From assembly GCA_963709185.1 (NCBI GenBank), contig CAVPVQ010000029.1:1122-65121 (forward strand): a DNA stretch of 64,000 nucleotides, given 5' to 3'. This DNA is from an uncultured Alphaproteobacteria bacterium (GTDB taxonomy: Bacteria > Pseudomonadota > Alphaproteobacteria > Rhizobiales > Beijerinckiaceae). Of this stretch, positions 1 to 19,258 are shown piece by piece. The translations under genes and the position numbers were made by a program. The notes below the pieces were generated by a model. The model saw only the letters and a list, made by a program, of their open reading frames with translations, did no database searches and was not told where the DNA came from. Every line of letters begins with the position of its first letter. The stretch's first letter is position 1.

Positions 1-374
1 CTCTCTTGCGGTCGACCTGCTCGAAACCCGCCGGTACGACCTGTTATTTGGTCCAATAGTTGCTGCTGAATTGCGAAAGGCATTGCCCCTCCCCGTCGCG
101 ATTTCTTGAGCAGGTCAAAGACCGAACAGACGTGACGAATTGTTTGCTCGTTCAGCGTCATCTCCGGCCAATCCGCCCGCACAACGGACCGCTGATCCCG
201 CAGCGCCCGAAATCAACCGCTTCGCGGCGCGAAAGGCAAGGCGGCGCAGCCTCCGGCGCGCCATTATCTCGCCCCGCGTCGCTTTTCCCGCGTTCGGCGA
301 ACGACTAAGACTAGGAGGCGATCGGGCCCGCGCCGGCCCGCCCGCCCGGCCAAATCGAAACTGGAGGGAGCGCC

Positions 375-2875: not shown

Positions 2876-2911
2876 ACGGGTCGGGCGTGTCGCGGTAAAT
2901 CCAAACCGGCG

Positions 2912-2927
2912 TGTTCCCTGAGGAACA
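2912..2927 (+). promoter_or_regulatory. Clr/CRP-type palindromic box TGTTCC-CTGA-GGAACA
   Basis: Perfect 6-4-6 palindrome matching the rhizobial Clr consensus as I recall it (HGTYHC-N4-GRWACA); a second copy at 7620-7635 lies the same distance (94 nt) from its ATG. Confidence 0.7.
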
Positions 2928-3020
2928 GCGCGCCCGGTCGATTTCAACGATCGTGCTGCTGCGAGACGGTCGACCGCGACGAATGTTCGTCCGGACCGCT
3001 CGAAGACAGGAGTAACGATC

Positions 3021-3302
3021 ATGAAAAATCTTGCTGGCTATTCTATCGCCGCCTTCGCCGGCGCCACGATGCTCGCGATGTCCATGAGCCCGGCGTCCGC
3101 CTTCACTCTGTCCGGGCCTTCCCTGGAGCAGCCCGTCGCTTCCGCGCAGATCGACAAGGTCTGGTGGCGGGGCGGCGGCTGGCGGGGCGGATGGGGCTAT
3201 CGCGCATGGGGCTGGCGCCGTCCGGTCTGGGGTTGGACCGGTTACGCGTACTATCCGGGCTATTGCTGGCGCGGCTACTACGGCTACCTCCATTGCAACT
3301 GA
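3021..3302 (+). CDS. Small secreted Gly/Trp/Tyr/Arg-rich protein, 93 aa
   Basis: AGGAG RBS; Sec signal ending ASA; C-terminal WWRGGGWRGGWGY...YCWRGYYGYLHCN low-complexity tail with two Cys. Confidence 0.85.
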   Translation: MKNLAGYSIAAFAGATMLAMSMSPASAFTLSGPSLEQPVASAQIDKVWWRGGGWRGGWGYRAWGWRRPVWGWTGYAYYPGYCWRGYYGYLHCN

Positions 3303-3333
3303 AATCGCGACACGGCGCCGACGTCAGGCGCGA

Positions 3334-3365
3334 GACGGCCGTCGACCTCCAATCCGACGGCCGTC
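3334..3365. terminator. 11-bp perfect hairpin GACGGCCGTCG-N10-CGACGGCCGTC
   Basis: Inverted repeat about 30 nt after the stop of 3021-3302; no U-tract, so it may be an mRNA-stabilising stem instead. Confidence 0.35.
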
Positions 3366-3483
3366 AAACGCCCGCGGCGGGGCCGGGATTCGCAGGCGCG
3401 ACGCGGCGTTGCCGACAACGCCGAGTCGCGGCATAGTGACGTCCGAACCGAAGCTCATGGCTGTCCCGGACAGGCAGGCGCGA

Positions 3484-3978
3484 ATGAGGCTGGTCACCGC
3501 CATCGCCATTCTGGCTCTCGCAGCGGGCGCGTCAGCCTCACTGCCGGCAAGCGCGTTCGCGCAGGATCAACCTGCCACGCCCGACACGGCCTATGTCCCG
3601 AACGTGAGCGATGTGATGGGGCAAACGCAGCTCCGCCATTTCAAGCTCGGCTATGCCGGCGCTCTCGGAAACTGGGCGCTCGCCAACTACGAACTTGGAC
3701 TTGTCGCCGACAGTTTCCACACGACGTCCACACTGTTGGCCGCGCCCAGCGATGCGCGCCTCGCGCAACTGTTGACGCAGGACTCGGCGCCGCCGCTCTC
3801 CGATATCGGCAAGGCGATCGCCGCCGGAAGCAAAGAGGATTTCGGCCGCGCTTTCGAGCGGCTGACCGACGCCTGCAACGCCTGCCACAGCGCCGCGCGG
3901 GTCGGCTTCATCAAAATCAAGTTCCCAACCACCTCGCGCAATTTCCTGTTCAGCAACCAGATCTTTCCCCCGGAATAG
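3484..3978 (+). CDS. Periplasmic monoheme c-type cytochrome, class II-like (C-terminal CXXCH), paralog 1
   Basis: Signal peptide; helical body; CNACH near the C-terminus. Start could also be 3457 or 3409. Confidence 0.75.
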   Translation: MRLVTAIAILALAAGASASLPASAFAQDQPATPDTAYVPNVSDVMGQTQLRHFKLGYAGALGNWALANYELGLVADSFHTTSTLLAAPSDARLAQLLTQDSAPPLSDIGKAIAAGSKEDFGRAFERLTDACNACHSAARVGFIKIKFPTTSRNFLFSNQIFPPE

Positions 3979-4016
3979 CGGCGACGCGTCACGCGCCGCC
4001 ATTCATCGTTGACGCC

Positions 4017-5856
4017 GTGCACGAGACCTCCGCCGATCAGCCCGCCGAAGCGCCCGCCGCGACGCCGCGGCCGATGCTGATCTATGACGGCGATTGCGCA
4101 TTCTGCGGCTACTGGGCGCGCTACTGGCGCAAGCTCACCGGCGAGCGCGTCGAATATCGGCCCTACCAGGACGCCGCCGCGCGGTTTCCCGAGATTTCAG
4201 AGGCCGAATTCCGGCGCGCCGCGCAGTTCATTGCGCCCGACGGACATCGCGCCAGCGGCGCCGAGGCCAGTTTCCTGACCTTGAGCCACGCGCGCGGCAG
4301 GGGATGCTGGCTCGTCCTCTACCGCCATCTGCCCGGCTTCGCCGCGGTCTCGGAGCGGGCTTACGCATTCATCGCCGCGCATCGCTCGGCCTTCTTCCGC
4401 GTCAGCCTGATGCTGTGGGGCGCCGAGCACGCGCCGCCGCGCTACGATCTCGTGTCGTTCTTGTTCCTGCGGCTGTTCGGGCTGATCTACCTCTCGGCGT
4501 TCCTCTCCTTCGCGGTGCAGGCGCAGGGGCTGATCGGCAGCGACGGCGTCCTGCCGCTGACCGATTTCGTCGACGCGCTCGCCGACCGTCTCGGCTCCCA
4601 GCGTTTCTTCCTCGCGCCGATGGTGTTCTGGCTCAACGACAGCGATGGGGCGATTCAGGCGGTTTGCTGGGCCGGCGCCGGGCTATCGCTGCTGCTGGTC
4701 GCCAATCTCGCGCCGCGCCTCAGCCTGCTTCTGCTCTATGCGCTCTATCTCTCGCTGTTCTACGCCGGCCAGACCTTCATGAGCTTCCAGTGGGACACGT
4801 TCCTGCTGGAGACCGGATTTGTCGCGCTGCTGCTGAGCTTCGCCACCGCGCAGGGCGTCTGGCTGCTGCGCTGGTTGCTGTTCCGTTTCATGTTCATGTC
4901 GGGCGTCGTCAAGCTGCTGAGCGGCGACGCCAATTGGTGGGGTCTGTCGGCGCTGTCGAAGCATTTTCTGACCCAGCCGCTGCCGACCCCGCTGGCCTGG
5001 CACGCCGCGCAACTGCCGTCGGACCTGCTGAAATTCGCCACCGGCGCCATGTTCGTCGTCGAGCTGATCCTGCCGTTCCTGATTTTCTTCCCGCGCCGGA
5101 TGCGGTTCCTCTCGGCGTTCGGCATCCTCACGCTGCAGAGCGGCATTCTCCTCACCGGCAATTACAACTGGTTCAATCTGCAGACCATGTTGCTGTGCCT
5201 GCCGCTGTTCGACGACGCGGCGGCGCGCAATATCCTGCCGGGTCCGCTGGTCCGGCTGTCTCCAGCGGGGCGCGGCGAACCACGCGCCGCGACGAGTGGG
5301 CGCGTTCGCGGTCAACGCCCTGGCGCTGCTGCTCGTGTTCTGCAGCCTGACGCTGATGGACCTGCGTTTCGGCGGCGATCCGCCGGCGACGGCGCAGGCG
5401 GTCGACGGCGCGATCGAGCCGCTGCATATCGTCAGCGCCTATGGTCTGTTCGCGGTGATGACCACGCAGCGCGACGAAATCGTCATCGAGGGTTCGAACG
5501 ACGGCGTCGAGTGGCGCGAATACGAATTCCGCTACAAGCCCGGCGATGTCGCGCGCCGCCCGCTCTGGAACATCCCGCATCAGCCGCGGCTCGACTGGCA
5601 GATGTGGTTCGCCGCGCTCGAAGACCCGAGGGATCTGCCGTGGTTTTCACAATTCGTGATCCGGCTGCTGCAGAACGAACCCGCCGTGACGGCGCTGCTG
5701 GAAAAGAACCCTTTTCCGGATCACCCGCCAACCTACGTGCGCGCGCAGTTCTACGAATACACCTACGCCAGCCGTGAGGAAAAGGCGGAAGGCCGGTGGT
5801 GGGACCGCCGGTTGCTGGGCCTGTATTTTCCCGCTGCGCGGCTGAGGGGCAAGTGA
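4017..5856 (+). CDS. DCC1-like thiol-disulfide oxidoreductase (DUF393) fused to a lipase maturation factor (LMF1) family membrane protein; frameshift near 5259
   Basis: IYDGDCAFC (DxxCxxC) N-domain; LMF motifs FQWDTFLLETGF, WLLFRFMFMSGVVKL, TQPLPTPLAW, LTGNYNWFN; C-terminal part (YGLFAVMTT..REYEFRYKPG..PHQPRLDWQMWFAAL) continues in the 5296-5856 frame. Confidence 0.85.
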
Positions 5857-6071
5857 TCGCGTCGTCGGCAAGCGGTCGCCAGGAAACAGCATTTCTCGGA
5901 CCGGCCCGATCGAACAGCGAAGGCCTGCCTTTCGGGGCGCGCCTCACACTTCATGCTCGGGCGAGGCTCACCCGGATCATGGCGCCGGCTCCTTCAGGGA
6001 GCGAATACAAGGGGCCGGCGATACCGGAGCGCCGCGTCGCCGCGGCGCTCCACAGTCGATGGATTCGGCTC

Positions 6072-7701: not shown

Positions 7702-8589
7702 ATGCCGCGCCAAGCCAGCCTCATCGCCAGCGTCTCGACAGTCCTCGCCGCGACCCTCCTCGCCTCCCTCGCCCACGCCAGCGAGGCCGCTCAGCCCCTC
7801 GACCATTCGCTGGCGCTGCCGGGACAACTGGTGCGCGTCGCCGACGCCAACGCGGCGACCTGCGTCAAAGCCCCCGCCCCGGTCGATCTGAAGGCGCTCG
7901 GCGACGCGATCAAGGCGCAGATCGTCCATCGGGCGCGGCTGGAGGCCGAGCTGCAGGGGCGCGGCGACATCGAACTCCCGGCGCCGCTGCAAGGCCAGCA
8001 GGGCGTCGAGCCAATCGCCGGCGCGCTGCGCGACGAACAGGCGGTGTTCGCCGCCCGCAAGGACGCCCTGAGCGCCCAGGTCGCCTCGCTGACCCAGGAC
8101 AAGGGGTTCTCGCAGCGCGAGATCGAGCTGACCACCGCCAAGGAGGCGGCGCTCGCCCGCCAGGAGGCGCTCGCCCAGAAGGACCTCGACAAGATCGGCG
8201 GCCTGCTCAGCGAGGGGCTGGTTTCCGGACCGCAGAAGCTCGCGCTGGAGCAGAACATCCTGCAGGCCGAGGCCAGCCGGCTCGACGTCAAGCTGGCGAC
8301 GCTGCGCGCGCAGCAGGAGATCAGCAAGATCGACCGCAACATCGTCGATATTCGCAACCAGTGGCGCAACGATTCGCTGGCCGAGTTCAACAAGACCCAG
8401 GCGGCGCTAATCGACCTCGCGCAGCAGGCGCGCGCCGCCGAGGCCGCCGCCGCCACGCCCGCGGCCGCGCCGGCCGAATGCGGCGAGGCGAAGGACGCGC
8501 TCTACATCATCCTGCGCGGCCCCGGCGGCGCCATGCAGGCCTTCCCCGTCGCCGCCGGCGGGCCGGCGATCGCGCGCAACGGACAATGA
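7702..8589 (+). CDS. Periplasmic long coiled-coil protein resembling the ExoF/HlyD-AprE alpha-hairpin, without a Poly_export domain
   Basis: GGAG RBS; signal peptide; RARLEAEL..EQAVFAARKDALSAQVASL..GLVS..LEQNILQAEASRLDVKL heptads; short C-terminal YIILRG remnant. Confidence 0.65.
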   Translation: MPRQASLIASVSTVLAATLLASLAHASEAAQPLDHSLALPGQLVRVADANAATCVKAPAPVDLKALGDAIKAQIVHRARLEAELQGRGDIELPAPLQGQQGVEPIAGALRDEQAVFAARKDALSAQVASLTQDKGFSQREIELTTAKEAALARQEALAQKDLDKIGGLLSEGLVSGPQKLALEQNILQAEASRLDVKLATLRAQQEISKIDRNIVDIRNQWRNDSLAEFNKTQAALIDLAQQARAAEAAAATPAAAPAECGEAKDALYIILRGPGGAMQAFPVAAGGPAIARNGQ

Positions 8590-8726: not shown

Positions 8727-9212
8727 ATGCGACACGCCAAGGCCATCGCCGCGCTGCTCTGCTCGGCCCTCGCCGTCGCCGTGCTGTCGGCGCACACGCA
8801 AGCTCAGGAACAGTCCGCGCAATCCAGTTCGGCCTATGCGCCCAAGGTCGCCGACATCATGGGCCAGACGCAACTGCGACACTTCAAGCTGTGGTTCGCC
8901 GGCAGCGCGGGCAATTGGGCGCTCGCGAGCTACGAGCTGGGGCAGATCAGGGGCGGTTTCGACGCGGCGGCGAGGCTCTACCACACACCTGGCGGCGCGC
9001 CGTCCGCGCGAGGGTTGAAGGACGACAGCGGGCCTCCCGTGGCCGATGTCGCCAAGGCTGTCGCGGCCGGAAACAAAGAAGATTTCATCAAGGCCTTCGA
9101 GCGGCTGACGATGGCCTGCAACGCCTGCCATCAGGCCGCCCATGTCGGATTCATCAGGATCAGGGTGCCGACCTCGTCGCCGTTCACCGACCAGTCTTTT
9201 CCGCCGGAGTGA
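8727..9212 (+). CDS. Periplasmic monoheme c-type cytochrome, paralog 2
   Basis: Signal peptide from ATG 8727; perfect TATAAT at 8684-8689; CNACH; shares MGQTQLRHFKL, GNWALAxYELG, KEDF, AFERLT, VGFI and FPPE with 3484-3978. Confidence 0.75.
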   Translation: MRHAKAIAALLCSALAVAVLSAHTQAQEQSAQSSSAYAPKVADIMGQTQLRHFKLWFAGSAGNWALASYELGQIRGGFDAAARLYHTPGGAPSARGLKDDSGPPVADVAKAVAAGNKEDFIKAFERLTMACNACHQAAHVGFIRIRVPTSSPFTDQSFPPE

Positions 9213-17267: not shown

Positions 17268-18173
17268 ATGACCAGCAAGCGCGATCCATGGCCCGAACAC
17301 TGCCGCCGGCGGCTGGTCGCCGCGATTCTGAGCGCCGCCGATCTGTTCCCGCATTCGGGCGAAGACGAGGCCTCGCGCATCCATGACGCGCGCAAGGCGC
17401 TGAAACAGGCGCGCGCCGCGGCGAGGCTGTTCGCCGTGGCGGTAGGGCCGCCCGCCTATGAGGCGATCAGCGCGCTGGAGGCGGCGCGCCGCGAGACCGG
17501 GCGAGCGCGCGACCTCGACGTGATGCCCGCCGCGCTGGCGAGCCTCGGCGCGGCGGTCGACGCCGACACGATGGCCCGCCTCAACCGCGCCATCGCCTTT
17601 GAGCGCGAGGTGGCGCGCCACGCCCATCGCGGGATCGACGTCGGCGCCCAGGTGACGCAATTGCGCGAGCTCGCGCGCTCGATCGAGGACTGGGACATCG
17701 CGTCGGCGACCGTTCCCGCGCAATTGCTCAAGGCCTTGCGCAACGGATACCGAACGGCGCGGCGGCACGGACGACGGGCGCTGGATAGCGGCGACGCGCA
17801 CGAACTGCATCTGCTGCGCGCGCAGATCGTCGATCTCGGCGATCATTTCATCGCGCTGGAGCCGGCATGGCCCGATCTGTTCGCCACGATGGGCGAGGAA
17901 TTCCAGCGGATGCGCCGCCATCTTGGCGAACATCACGACCTGACGGTGCTCGCCGAATTCGCGGTCGGCCGCCCCGACCTGCCGCTCAACCAGATGACGG
18001 ATCTGGCGCTGCAGGTGGAGCGGCGCCAGAAGAAGCTGGCGCGCCGCGCCCGCAAGGAGTTCGAGCGCCTGTTCGCCGAACGCCCCAGCGCCCTCGAGCA
18101 CCGCCTCGCCGCCTACCTGCAATATCCGAAGACGCGGATGGCGGGAGAACGCGAGAGCGTCGAGGTGGGGTGA
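17268..18173 (+). CDS. CHAD-domain protein
   Basis: IHDARKALKQARA, ARDLDV, LHLLR, LGEHHDLTVL motifs. Confidence 0.8.
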   Translation: MTSKRDPWPEHCRRRLVAAILSAADLFPHSGEDEASRIHDARKALKQARAAARLFAVAVGPPAYEAISALEAARRETGRARDLDVMPAALASLGAAVDADTMARLNRAIAFEREVARHAHRGIDVGAQVTQLRELARSIEDWDIASATVPAQLLKALRNGYRTARRHGRRALDSGDAHELHLLRAQIVDLGDHFIALEPAWPDLFATMGEEFQRMRRHLGEHHDLTVLAEFAVGRPDLPLNQMTDLALQVERRQKKLARRARKEFERLFAERPSALEHRLAAYLQYPKTRMAGERESVEVG

Positions 18174-18238
18174 GAGGTCCGCCTCGTCGCCGCCCCTTCC
18201 ATGCTACAACGCCCGCCACACCAACCACGGAGCCCGCG

Positions 18239-19258
18239 ATGGCGAAGATGCGTGCGATGATCGTCCCGAAAGCCGGCGCCCCGTTCGAAATGGTGGAGCG
18301 CGATTCCCCCGCGCCCGGCCCGCATGAGGTGCGCATCAAGGTGCAGGCGTGCGGCGTCTGCCACAGCGATTCGGTCACCGTCAATGGCCTGATGCCGGGG
18401 ATCGCCTATCCGCGCATTCCGGGCCACGAAGTGATCGGAATCATCGAGGCGGTCGGCCCCGACGTGGCGGGCTGGAGCGTCGGCGAGCGGGTCGGCGTCG
18501 GCTGGTTCGGCGGCGCCTGCGGCTATTGCGGCAATTGCCGGCGTGGCGACGCCTTCGCCTGCGAGAATATCCACGGCGCCACCGGCGTCACGCGCGACGG
18601 CGGCTACGCCACCCATATGCTGGCCCTGACTTCCGCGCTGGCGCGCGTGCCGGAGGCGCTGGATTCGGTCGAGTCGGCGCCGCTGCTGTGCGCCGGCATC
18701 ACCACCTTCAACGCGCTGCGCAATTGCGGCGCCGGCCCCGGCGACCTCGTGGCGATCCACGGCGTCGGCGGGCTCGGCCATCTCGGCATGCAGTTCGCGG
18801 CGCGGCAGGGGTTTCGCACCGTGGCCGTCAACCGCGGCCGCGACAAGGAGCAACTGGCCCGCTCGCTCGGCGCGCACGCCTATATCGACAGCGCCGCCGA
18901 GGACCCCGCCAAGGCGCTGCAGGCGATGGGCGGCGCCAAGGCGATCATCGCCACCGTCACCGACGCCGGCGCGATGCAGGCGATCGCCGGCGGCCTCGGC
19001 CCCAACGGCGTGCTGATGGTGATCGGCGCGGTCGGCGCGCTCACCGTCAATTCGCTTGATCTGCTGGCCAAGCGCGCCGCGGTGAAGGGCTGGTATTCCG
19101 GCACCTCGGCCGATTCCGAGGACACGCTGCTGTTCAGCGAGCTCAACAAGATCGCCTCGATGAACGAGGTGTTCCCGCTCGAACAGGCTCAAGCGGCCTA
19201 CGACCGGATGATGAGCGGCAAGGCGCGCTTTCGCGTGGTGCTGAAGATCGAGGGGTAG
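18239..19258 (+). CDS. Zn-dependent alcohol dehydrogenase (MDR)
   Basis: CHSD, GHE, CGYCGNC..C structural Zn, GVGGLG Rossmann, GKARFRVVL end. Confidence 0.92.
   Translation: MAKMRAMIVPKAGAPFEMVERDSPAPGPHEVRIKVQACGVCHSDSVTVNGLMPGIAYPRIPGHEVIGIIEAVGPDVAGWSVGERVGVGWFGGACGYCGNCRRGDAFACENIHGATGVTRDGGYATHMLALTSALARVPEALDSVESAPLLCAGITTFNALRNCGAGPGDLVAIHGVGGLGHLGMQFAARQGFRTVAVNRGRDKEQLARSLGAHAYIDSAAEDPAKALQAMGGAKAIIATVTDAGAMQAIAGGLGPNGVLMVIGAVGALTVNSLDLLAKRAAVKGWYSGTSADSEDTLLFSELNKIASMNEVFPLEQAQAAYDRMMSGKARFRVVLKIEG

What the first reader, a model, noticed from the sequence alone, without database searches (positions are those of the whole stretch)
4017..5856. DCC1 thioredoxin-like domain fused to a bacterial LMF1 homolog, bracketed by c-type cytochromes
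Eukaryotic LMF1 assists folding of secreted lipases and has been linked to ER redox; the function of bacterial homologs is unknown to me. Here it carries an N-terminal DxxCxxC domain and sits among Cys-bearing exported proteins (two CXXCH cytochromes, the two-Cys peptide, the two-Cys coiled coil). Inference: a dedicated trans-membrane redox/maturation factor for this module.
Basis: partly seen in the sequence, partly recalled or inferred. Interest (0 to 1): 0.65.

Follow-up and report, generated by a model that had tools for sequence, protein, structure and literature searches.

The report
Common DCC–LMF1 membrane fusion gene
This is an ordinary member of a very large but unstudied bacterial family: a small cytoplasmic two-cysteine redox domain joined to a relative of human lipase maturation factor 1. 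It is not tied to the neighbouring cytochrome genes, and the apparent break in its reading frame is most likely an assembly error.

Summary
Window 4017-5856 (+) encodes DCC1-like (PF04134), LMF1 (PF06762) and LMF1_C (PF25179) domains, and two paralogous cytochrome c'-like genes lie on either side.

**Frame break.** It is one extra base at 5260. Five same-genus orthologues lack it, and so do all four public short-read contigs that cover the site. With that base left out, the gene is one 612-aa ORF, 89.5% identical to its closest intact relative.

**The fusion is common.** It occurs in at least 598 species genomes across many phyla, and 78 of the 80 kept are intact single ORFs. NCBI already names it 'lipase maturation factor family protein'.

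None of 87 related loci has a cytochrome c'-like, repeat or coiled-coil neighbour. No gene family recurs in more than 13 of 80 loci. The closest relatives lack most of the upstream cytochrome gene.

**The 'trans-membrane redox factor' reading stays plausible.** The always-conserved CxxC is cytoplasmic. A confident model (pLDDT 91) resembles only vitamin K-dependent carboxylase. An invariant membrane lysine falls on the carboxylase's K217/K218 pair, of which Lys218 is the catalytic base.

Verdict: a new member of a known, uncharacterised kind. Interest is moderate and attaches to the family rather than to this locus.

The parts
4017..5259 (+). 5' part of the DCC1-LMF1 gene (GTG start; residues 1-414) in the frame of 4017
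   Evidence: ORF list; Pfam DCC1-like and LMF1; the N-terminus matches that of the orthologues
5260..5260 (+). Single extra base (C in GT-C-TCC) that shifts the frame; probably an assembly error, possibly a variant private to this strain
   Evidence: Absent from 5 same-genus orthologues and from 4 of 4 covering contigs in public runs X1, X2, X7 and X8. Without it the junction matches P0002.
5261..5856 (+). 3' part of the same gene (residues 415-612, stop TGA at 5854-5856)
   Evidence: Pfam LMF1_C, 5.6e-53; continuous with the 5' part in all intact orthologues
4077..4400 (+). DCC1-like thioredoxin-fold domain (aa 21-128), predicted cytoplasmic
   Evidence: PF04134, 45.7 bits; no hydrophobic segment before aa 144; a beta-alpha fold in the model of orthologue P0002
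4095..4106 (+). C27-A-F-C30 redox motif
   Evidence: Sequence; both Cys kept in 79 of 79 aligned fused proteins
4779..5222 (+). LMF1 Pfam domain (aa 255-402), the core of a membrane region of about 9 helices spanning aa 144-450
   Evidence: PF06762, 2.2e-48; helices in the AlphaFold2 model; hydropathy
4911..4913 (+). Lys299 codon in the motif SGVVKLLSGD: an invariant lysine in the membrane domain
   Evidence: Kept in 245 of 245 LMF homologues. It aligns through an HTTM profile to GGCX K217/K218.
5196..5198 (+). Cys394 codon (LLCLPLFDD), the only highly conserved Cys outside the CxxC
   Evidence: 97% of 79 sequences; 91% of fused and 79% of DCC-less homologues
5428..5832 (+). LMF1_C beta-rich domain, predicted periplasmic
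   Evidence: PF25179; beta strands at aa 485-607 in the model; location inferred from the LMF1 and GGCX topologies (PMC11526315, PMC13187478)
3457..3978 (+). Neighbour, not part of the system: cytochrome c'-like gene 1 (signal peptide, C-terminal CNACH), 38 nt upstream of the LMF gene
   Evidence: Weak PF01322 hit. Most of it (3568-3977) is absent from the closest relatives L015 and L016.
8727..9212 (+). Neighbour, not part of the system: cytochrome c'-like gene 2, a paralogue of gene 1
   Evidence: 53-57% identity to gene 1; two further paralogues on contigs C22 and C28

Best explanation
Window 4017-5856 is one stand-alone gene for a 612-aa inner-membrane protein of the bacterial 'lipase maturation factor family'.

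Shown:
- A thioredoxin-fold DCC1-like domain with an always-kept CxxC lies before the first membrane helix and has no signal peptide, so it is cytoplasmic.
- It is followed by about 9 membrane helices and a beta-rich C-terminal LMF1_C domain.
- The extra base at 5260 is absent from every related or near-identical sequence examined.
- The gene has no conserved neighbours.

Inferred:
- The membrane core with its C-terminal domain belongs to the fold class of vitamin K-dependent gamma-carboxylase (9 membrane helices plus an extracytoplasmic domain).
- The core carries a polar site buried in the membrane. Lys299, Gln258, Trp259, Glu265 and Asn387 are invariant across 245 homologues, and Asp260 is nearly so.
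- The protein therefore probably acts as a membrane enzyme or redox-coupled maturation factor on exported or envelope substrates, which the periplasmic domain engages.
- The fused cytoplasmic CxxC domain probably supplies or removes reducing equivalents. That is the role proposed for cytosolic thioredoxin with eukaryotic LMF1.

It serves the cell in general rather than the cytochrome and peptide genes beside it.
For: Identity and single ORF.

Family size and spread:
- More than 5,700 hits, with the top 120 all having the same three domains.
- At least 598 species genomes across many phyla.
- 5,780 clusters at the 50% level.

Cytoplasmic CxxC: no hydrophobic segment before aa 144 and no signal peptide. 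Loops rich in Arg/Lys at 229-234, 356-364 and 400-426 alternate with acidic or neutral loops, which gives an N-in, C-out layout with 9 helices.

Fold: the AlphaFold2 model of the 89%-identical orthologue has pLDDT 91.4 and pTM 0.89. The top 15 Foldseek PDB hits are all GGCX (probability 1.0, about 500 aligned columns), and the next hit has E 0.2. GGCX has 9 membrane helices and a luminal domain (PMC13187478).

Lysine: Lys299 aligns with the invariant HTTM lysine (hhalign E 2.5e-4), which in turn aligns with GGCX K217/K218 (E 9e-6).

Invariant polar residues in the membrane region, with or without the DCC domain.

Literature: LMF1 cysteines interact with cytosolic thioredoxin and ERdj5 (PMC11526315). 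LMF1 has been named a candidate shuttle of reducing equivalents into the ER (PMC7197872). HTTM-DCC1-like fusions that resemble GGCX exist in Firmicutes (bioRxiv 10.64898/2026.08.19.745780).

No conserved neighbourhood.
Against: - No experiment exists on any bacterial member, so the substrate and the chemistry are unknown.
- Foldseek TM-scores to GGCX are low (0.32-0.38).
- The LMF-HTTM profile match is only 43% probability. Pfam HTTM does not match even at E<=10.
- The GGCX quinone ligands His287 and Asn290 have no invariant counterpart in LMF.
- A thiol relay of the DsbD type is not supported. Only one membrane Cys is highly conserved (C394), and there is none in the periplasmic domain.
- C394 is nearly as common in homologues without DCC (79%) as in fused ones (91%).
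- About half of the nearest family clusters lack the DCC domain, so the redox domain is dispensable for the core function.
- I could not inspect model coordinates, so the distance from the CxxC to the membrane site is unknown.
Confidence: 0.55

Rival explanations
1. Enzyme of the carboxylase type. The LMF core would be a quinol-dependent enzyme like GGCX or MloH, with Lys299 activating a membrane quinol to modify a peptide or small molecule. The DCC CxxC domain would recycle the oxidised quinone, which is the job VKOR does for GGCX.
For: Fold hits are to GGCX only. Lys299 is invariant and falls on GGCX K217/K218 by a two-step alignment. DCC1-like domains also occur fused to true HTTM domains. 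Many polar residues in the membrane region are invariant, which suits an enzyme better than a passive chaperone.
Against: The HTTM/GGCX His-x-x-Asn quinone-binding motif is not kept in LMF: the profile alignment ends before it, and there is no invariant His at 360-400. In GGCX the naphthoquinone head sits near the membrane surface, held by TM5-8 and the cap domain (PMC12647623), whereas the CxxC here is cytoplasmic. Half of the family lacks DCC. No carboxylated substrate is known, and no substrate gene is linked.
Confidence: 0.2
2. One reading: a dedicated maturation or redox factor for the local set of exported Cys-bearing proteins, namely the two cytochromes, the Gly/Trp peptide and the coiled-coil protein.
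For: Physical adjacency. Only 38 nt separate the upstream cytochrome c'-like gene from the LMF start, and no terminator-like site lies between them. The two closest relatives keep the Gly/Trp peptide upstream.
Against: - 0 of 87 related loci have a cytochrome c'-like, repeat or coiled-coil neighbour.
- The closest relatives have lost most of the cytochrome gene yet keep an intact LMF gene.
- Cytochrome and peptide paralogues sit elsewhere in the genome without an LMF gene.
- Ccm and CcdA/DsbD genes are present elsewhere.
- No recurrent neighbour family was found.
Confidence: 0.05
3. Genuine pseudogene. The extra base at 5260 would be real in this strain, so the gene would make a 586-aa product without the LMF1_C domain.
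For: The assembly carries the base. Over 20 kb it is the only coding indel against near-identical short-read contigs, so the assembly is not riddled with errors. Orthologues in two other genomes of the genus (G001, G011) also have frame breaks at other positions.
Against: Four of four covering contigs, from three studies, lack the base. Both halves are otherwise intact and 89.5% identical to an intact orthologue. The genome appears to belong to a set of metagenome-assembled genomes (MAGs) that I take, from my own knowledge, to be built from long reads, where isolated consensus indels are expected (record titles).
Confidence: 0.1

Closest known systems
Eukaryotic lipase maturation factor 1 (LMF1; Pfam PF06762 + PF25179)
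   Same: Both Pfam domains match far above their cut-offs. It is a multi-pass membrane protein with a cytoplasmic N-terminus and an extracytoplasmic C-terminal domain. LMF1 has a published link to thiol redox through cytosolic thioredoxin and ERdj5 (PMC11526315, PMC7197872).
   Different: The bacterial protein carries its own fused thioredoxin-like DCC1 domain, and its model has about 9 membrane helices against the 5 mapped for LMF1. It has no lipase client and no ER. Of the eight LMF1 cysteines reported as redox-active, I could not test correspondence here. The bacterial family keeps only one or two Cys outside the CxxC.
Bacterial 'lipase maturation factor family protein' (DCC1-like + LMF1 + LMF1_C), as named by NCBI and JGI
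   Same: Same architecture and about the same length. It is 73-89% identical to named metagenomic members.
   Different: Nothing of substance. The window copy has one extra base in the assembly, and two cytochrome c'-like genes happen to lie beside it.
[quoted passage not shown]
   Same: GGCX is the only solved fold that the model resembles. It shares the plan of 9 membrane helices plus a C-terminal extracytoplasmic domain. The motif G-x-x-K...W is shared, with the invariant Lys on GGCX K217/K218. DCC1-like domains are also found fused to HTTM domains.
   Different: There is no Pfam HTTM match and TM-scores are low. The His287/Asn290 quinone ligands are not conserved. No propeptide-bearing substrates are known.
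DsbD/CcdA transmembrane thiol-disulfide relay
   Same: The idea is the same: a cytoplasmic thioredoxin-type donor coupled through a membrane protein to the periplasm.
   Different: There are no paired conserved cysteines in the membrane helices and none in the periplasmic domain. The fold is unrelated. The genome has its own CcdA/DsbD_TM gene elsewhere.

Membership tests
LMF1 family (Pfam PF06762 + PF25179) | Match to both family profiles above the curated cut-offs | tested here: met
   LMF1 164.9 bits (cut-off 27) and LMF1_C 179.1 bits (cut-off 34.2)
LMF1 family (Pfam PF06762 + PF25179) | Polytopic membrane protein with a cytoplasmic N-terminus and an extracytoplasmic C-terminal domain | tested here: inconclusive
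   Hydropathy, the positive-inside pattern and model helices fit N-in, 9 membrane helices, C-out. This is prediction only.
LMF1 family (Pfam PF06762 + PF25179) | Required for maturation of secreted, disulfide-bonded client proteins | not testable with these tools
   Needs genetics and biochemistry
DCC1-like thiol-disulfide oxidoreductases (Pfam PF04134) | Profile match above the cut-off | tested here: met
   45.7 bits against 27.8
DCC1-like thiol-disulfide oxidoreductases (Pfam PF04134) | D-x-x-C-x-x-C motif at the start of a thioredoxin-like fold | tested here: met
   D24GDC27AFC30; both Cys in 79 of 79 aligned sequences; beta-alpha-beta pattern in the model
DCC1-like thiol-disulfide oxidoreductases (Pfam PF04134) | Thiol-disulfide exchange activity | not testable with these tools
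   Needs a redox assay
HTTM / vitamin K-dependent carboxylase (Pfam PF05090, GGCX) | Match to the HTTM profile | tested here: not met
   No PF05090 hit even at E<=10. Profile-to-profile comparison with HTTM proteins gives only 43% probability, E 2.5e-4.
HTTM / vitamin K-dependent carboxylase (Pfam PF05090, GGCX) | GGCX-like fold (9 membrane helices plus a luminal domain) | tested here: met
   The top 15 Foldseek PDB hits are all GGCX, probability 1.0, but TM-scores are 0.32-0.38
HTTM / vitamin K-dependent carboxylase (Pfam PF05090, GGCX) | Catalytic base Lys218 | tested here: inconclusive
   The invariant Lys299 falls on GGCX K217/K218 by a two-step alignment. The register is uncertain by one residue.
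HTTM / vitamin K-dependent carboxylase (Pfam PF05090, GGCX) | Quinone ligands His287 and Asn290 | tested here: not met
   The HTTM F-H-x-x-N motif aligns to GGCX. The LMF alignment ends before it, and LMF has no invariant His at 360-400.
DsbD/CcdA-type transmembrane thiol relay | Conserved cysteine pairs in membrane helices and in a periplasmic domain | tested here: not met
   Only C394 (91-97%) and C217 (63-75%) are conserved, and there is no Cys in the C-terminal domain
   0 of 87 loci; no recurrent neighbour family; the cytochrome gene is largely absent from the closest relatives

The most novel reading that the evidence does not exclude
The bacterial DCC1-LMF1 fusion would be a 'Rosetta stone' for the whole LMF family, human LMF1 included. 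On this reading LMF proteins are not passive chaperones. They are a diverged branch of the GGCX/HTTM membrane-enzyme superfamily that keeps the activating lysine in a polar site buried in the membrane. They draw reducing power from a cytosolic thioredoxin-type partner, which is fused in many bacteria and separate in eukaryotes, and so couple cytoplasmic redox to the maturation of exported proteins. I found no paper in the searched library that links LMF1 to GGCX or discusses the fusion. One GGCX structure paper states that GGCX has no known homology to other enzyme families (PMC12647623).
Probability: 0.2. Interest if true: 0.8.

Novelty: new member of a known kind. Interest (0 to 1): 0.33.

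Why it matters
For this locus, little. It corrects an annotation, turning two apparent ORFs into one gene, and it removes a tempting but unsupported 'module' story.

For the family, more. Thousands of bacteria fuse a thioredoxin-like domain to an LMF1 homologue. Published work proposes that human LMF1 takes electrons from cytosolic thioredoxin, and how reducing equivalents cross the ER membrane is still an open question. The bacterial proteins would give a tractable model, with an invariant lysine and a carboxylase-like fold, in which that idea could be tested directly.

Tried and rejected
- **Programmed +1 frameshift.** Rejected. The site (CTG-TCT-CCA) has no slippery or stop-codon context. 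All orthologues, and every contig from a public run that covers the site, simply lack the base.
- **Conserved gene neighbourhood.** I searched three ways: close homologues with called genes, tblastn of every window neighbour against 87 loci, and de novo clustering of all flanking ORFs. Nothing specific turned up. By their sequences, the commonest recurrent neighbours look like generic families: sigma-54 activators, ABC ATPases, short-chain dehydrogenases, GGDEF-EAL proteins and TetR regulators. I judged this by eye and ran no profile search on them.
- **Split DCC + LMF gene pairs as extra Rosetta-stone evidence.** Among 17 DCC-less loci from metagenomes, none had a separate DCC gene within the available flank. 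An earlier unchecked scan note reports one such pair in another genome.
- **Covariation of C394 with presence of DCC.** C394 is kept in 91% of fused and 79% of DCC-less homologues. The difference is too small to argue for a CxxC-to-C394 relay.
- **Sequence search of solved structures with the family profile.** Nothing found. NCBIfam: no model.
- **Eukaryotic LMF1 sequences.** I could not obtain any, so I could not test directly whether Lys299 or the cysteines are shared with human LMF1.
Full report
**1. What is there**

The ORF list shows a 586-aa frame from GTG 4017 whose last 170 or so residues are Arg-rich nonsense. It also shows a 186-aa frame from 5296 to 5856 that reads like real protein.

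Pfam places DCC1-like (PF04134, aa 21-128, 45.7 bits) and LMF1 (PF06762, aa 255-402, 164.9 bits) in the first frame. LMF1_C (PF25179, 179 bits) is in the second. The motif D-G-D-C27-A-F-C30 is at nt 4086-4106. The domain fusion and the frame change are therefore both really in the sequence.

**2. The frame break**

- Orthologues in four same-genus genomes are single ORFs of about 600 aa.
- A DNA alignment with five orthologues shows exactly one extra base in the window, at about 5258-5260.
- Contigs from public soil-metagenome runs that are otherwise identical or nearly so all leave out one base at 5260. These are X1 and X2 and X7 and X8: four of four covering contigs, from three studies. No run showed the window's version.
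- With that base left out the gene is one 612-aa ORF. The junction reads LVRLFQRGAANHAPRR, against LVRLFRRGAANHTPRR in the closest intact relative P0002. Overall identity to P0002 is 548/612.
- Over the first 20 kb of the window this is the only coding indel against such contigs.
- The genome is a 33-contig assembly that is 92% complete. Its relatives carry titles of a large set of metagenome-assembled genomes (MAGs). From my own knowledge I take that set to be built from long reads, so an isolated consensus error is the likeliest cause. I put this at about 85-90%, with a strain-specific pseudogene at about 10%.
- The site has no features of programmed frameshifting.

**3. How common the fusion is**

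- A search of the protein collection gave more than 5,700 hits. The top 120 all have the same three domains at about 615 aa, and several are named 'lipase maturation factor family protein' or 'DCC family thiol-disulfide oxidoreductase YuxK'.
They span Alpha-, Beta- and Gammaproteobacteria, Binatia, Acidobacteriota, Verrucomicrobiota, Planctomycetota, Poribacteria and others. Of the 80 kept, 78 are intact single ORFs.
- An exhaustive search with the membrane part alone finds 5,780 clusters at the 50% level. Among full-length members of the best 150, 43 carry the DxxCxxC domain (median 613 aa) and 43 do not (median 512 aa).
- Of 80 metagenome loci, 63 are fused and 17 lack DCC. None of the 17 has a separate DCC gene within the available flank.
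- The gene is patchy. It is in 9 of 19 genomes of the window's genus but in only 1 other of 300 evenly drawn genomes of the class. Copies in other phyla are nevertheless 70-74% identical, which hints at horizontal spread among soil bacteria.

**4. The neighbourhood**

In this window the gene follows a cytochrome c'-like gene by 38 nt. A paralogue of that gene lies 2.9 kb downstream, beyond a Thr-repeat protein gene on the other strand and a coiled-coil gene.

None of this is conserved:
- Same-genus loci at 73-79% identity have quite different neighbours: CoA transferase, sulfotransferase, GTP cyclohydrolase and TadE genes.
- The two closest metagenomic loci (89% identity) share only the upstream FecR, CHASE2-cyclase and Gly/Trp-peptide genes. 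Their DNA aligns to window 2909-3567 and 3978-5875 but not to 3568-3977. Most of the upstream cytochrome gene is therefore missing there, while the LMF gene stays intact.
- Across 80 diverse loci, tblastn finds no homologue of either cytochrome, the peptide, the repeat protein or the coiled coil within 10 kb.
- Clustering of all flanking ORFs finds no family in more than 13 of 80 loci. By their sequences, those that recur most look like generic families such as sigma-54 activators, ABC ATPases, short-chain dehydrogenases and GGDEF-EAL proteins (judged by eye, with no profile search).
- The window's genome has two more cytochrome c'-like paralogues and four more Gly/Trp-peptide paralogues elsewhere, none of them beside an LMF gene.
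- It also has CcmF/CcmC-type and CcdA/DsbD-type genes elsewhere.

**5. Anatomy and likely mechanism**

*Topology.* The N-terminal 143 residues have no hydrophobic segment or signal peptide, so the CxxC domain is cytoplasmic. The AlphaFold2 model of P0002, built on a 60-sequence alignment, is confident (pLDDT 91.4, pTM 0.89). It shows:
- a thioredoxin-like beta-alpha unit with three further helices;
- long helices at 144-173, 210-228, 233-254, 258-275, 277-301, 335-355, 360-380 and 426-450, plus a short hydrophobic helix at 384-392;
- a beta-rich domain at 485-607.

Loops rich in Arg/Lys (around 234, 358-364 and 400-426) alternate with acidic or neutral ones. That gives an N-in, 9-helix, C-out layout, the same plan as reported for GGCX. 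It also agrees with the lumenal C-terminus of LMF1 (PMC11526315). The frame break falls in the least conserved part of the protein, a loop that I place on the cytoplasmic side.

*Fold.* The model's only significant matches among solved structures are 15 entries of vitamin K-dependent gamma-carboxylase (probability 1.0, about 500 aligned columns, E 1e-4 to 6e-3). The next hit has E 0.2. TM-scores are low (0.32-0.38), so this is a distant resemblance.

*Sequence link.* At sequence level Pfam HTTM does not match. A profile comparison with alphaproteobacterial HTTM proteins gives E 2.5e-4 at 43% probability. It aligns LMF 'SGVVK299LLSGD..WW' with HTTM 'SGWVK..NPEW'. The HTTM profile in turn aligns that lysine with GGCX 'AGVKKLDADW', that is K217/K218 (E 9e-6). 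[quoted passage not shown]

*Conservation.*
- Lys299 is kept in 245 of 245 LMF homologues, with or without DCC. Gln258, Trp259, Glu265, Asn387, Arg524 and Asp526 are also invariant.
- By contrast, the GGCX/HTTM His-x-x-Asn quinone ligands have no invariant counterpart.
- Outside the CxxC, only Cys394 (91% of fused, 79% of DCC-less) and Cys217 (about 65%) are conserved. The periplasmic domain has no conserved Cys.

*Reading.* The picture is a membrane enzyme with a conserved polar site inside the membrane, an outward-facing binding domain and an optional cytoplasmic thiol-redox module. It is not a cysteine relay of the DsbD type. This parallels the proposal that eukaryotic LMF1 receives electrons from cytosolic thioredoxin (PMC11526315) and may shuttle reducing equivalents into the ER (PMC7197872). 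A preprint describes the reverse fusion, HTTM followed by DCC1-like, in Firmicutes, and finds that it resembles GGCX.

**6. Comparison with what is known, and novelty**

The gene is a member of the LMF1 and DCC1-like Pfam families: profile scores and the motif were tested and met. It belongs to the already named bacterial 'lipase maturation factor family'. It is not a member of the HTTM family by profile and lacks two GGCX ligands, although it shares the fold plan and the lysine.

I found no paper in the searched library on the bacterial fusion or on an LMF1-GGCX relationship. One GGCX structure paper says the enzyme has no known homology to other enzyme families.

Earlier unchecked notes of this scan reached the same reading for other genomes. 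My results agree with them and were obtained before I read them.

**7. Verdict**

- The locus is an ordinary new member of a known but uncharacterised kind.
- The family-level idea of a Rosetta-stone fusion and a GGCX-like enzyme is the interesting part, and it remains an inference.

Noticed in passing
window 4911-4913 (Lys299); model of P0002: The LMF1 membrane core with its C-terminal domain resembles only GGCX among solved structures. Its invariant Lys lines up with the GGCX K217/K218 pair through an HTTM profile. I found no paper in the searched library that links LMF1 and GGCX.
   Followed up: partly
window 3568-3977, compared with L015 and L016: The closest relatives (89% identical LMF gene) align to the window up to 3567 and again from 3978. 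Most of the upstream cytochrome c'-like gene is absent there, with about 117 nt of unrelated sequence in its place. This is a lineage-specific deletion or insertion.
   Followed up: partly
L006/L030 (G001) and L007/L011 (G011): Orthologues in two other genomes of the same genus also have frame breaks, at different positions (near the C-terminus in G001, near residue 44 in G011). G001 at least belongs to the same MAG series. These could be consensus errors or repeated decay, and I did not resolve which.
   Followed up: no
loci L035-L045 against the window: LMF copies from Steroidobacteraceae, Burkholderiales and an acidobacterial MAG are 70-74% identical to the alphaproteobacterial one. Yet only 1 other of 300 evenly drawn genomes of the class has the gene. 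This pattern suggests horizontal transfer among soil bacteria.
   Followed up: no
window 3457-3978 and 8727-9212; genome contigs C22 (~679309-679788) and C28 (~18003-18401): This is a four-member family of small exported proteins with a C-terminal CNACH. They match Pfam cytochrome c' only below the cut-off and have no NCBIfam model. Two of the members flank a block of about 4.7 kb.
   Followed up: no
window 7705-8589: The coiled-coil protein matches the HlyD type I adaptor subfamily TIGR01843 weakly (1e-14, 54 bits, far below the cut-off of 209) over its hairpin region only.
   Followed up: no
window 3021-3302; genome contigs C23, C32, C6 and C22: The secreted Gly/Trp/Tyr/Arg-rich two-Cys peptide has at least four paralogues elsewhere in the genome (57-71% identity over parts).
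   Followed up: no
window 177-195: One contig from run X2 differs from the window here by small insertions and a deletion (AG, CCGT, -1) in a non-coding or divergent stretch. This is probably strain variation.
   Followed up: no
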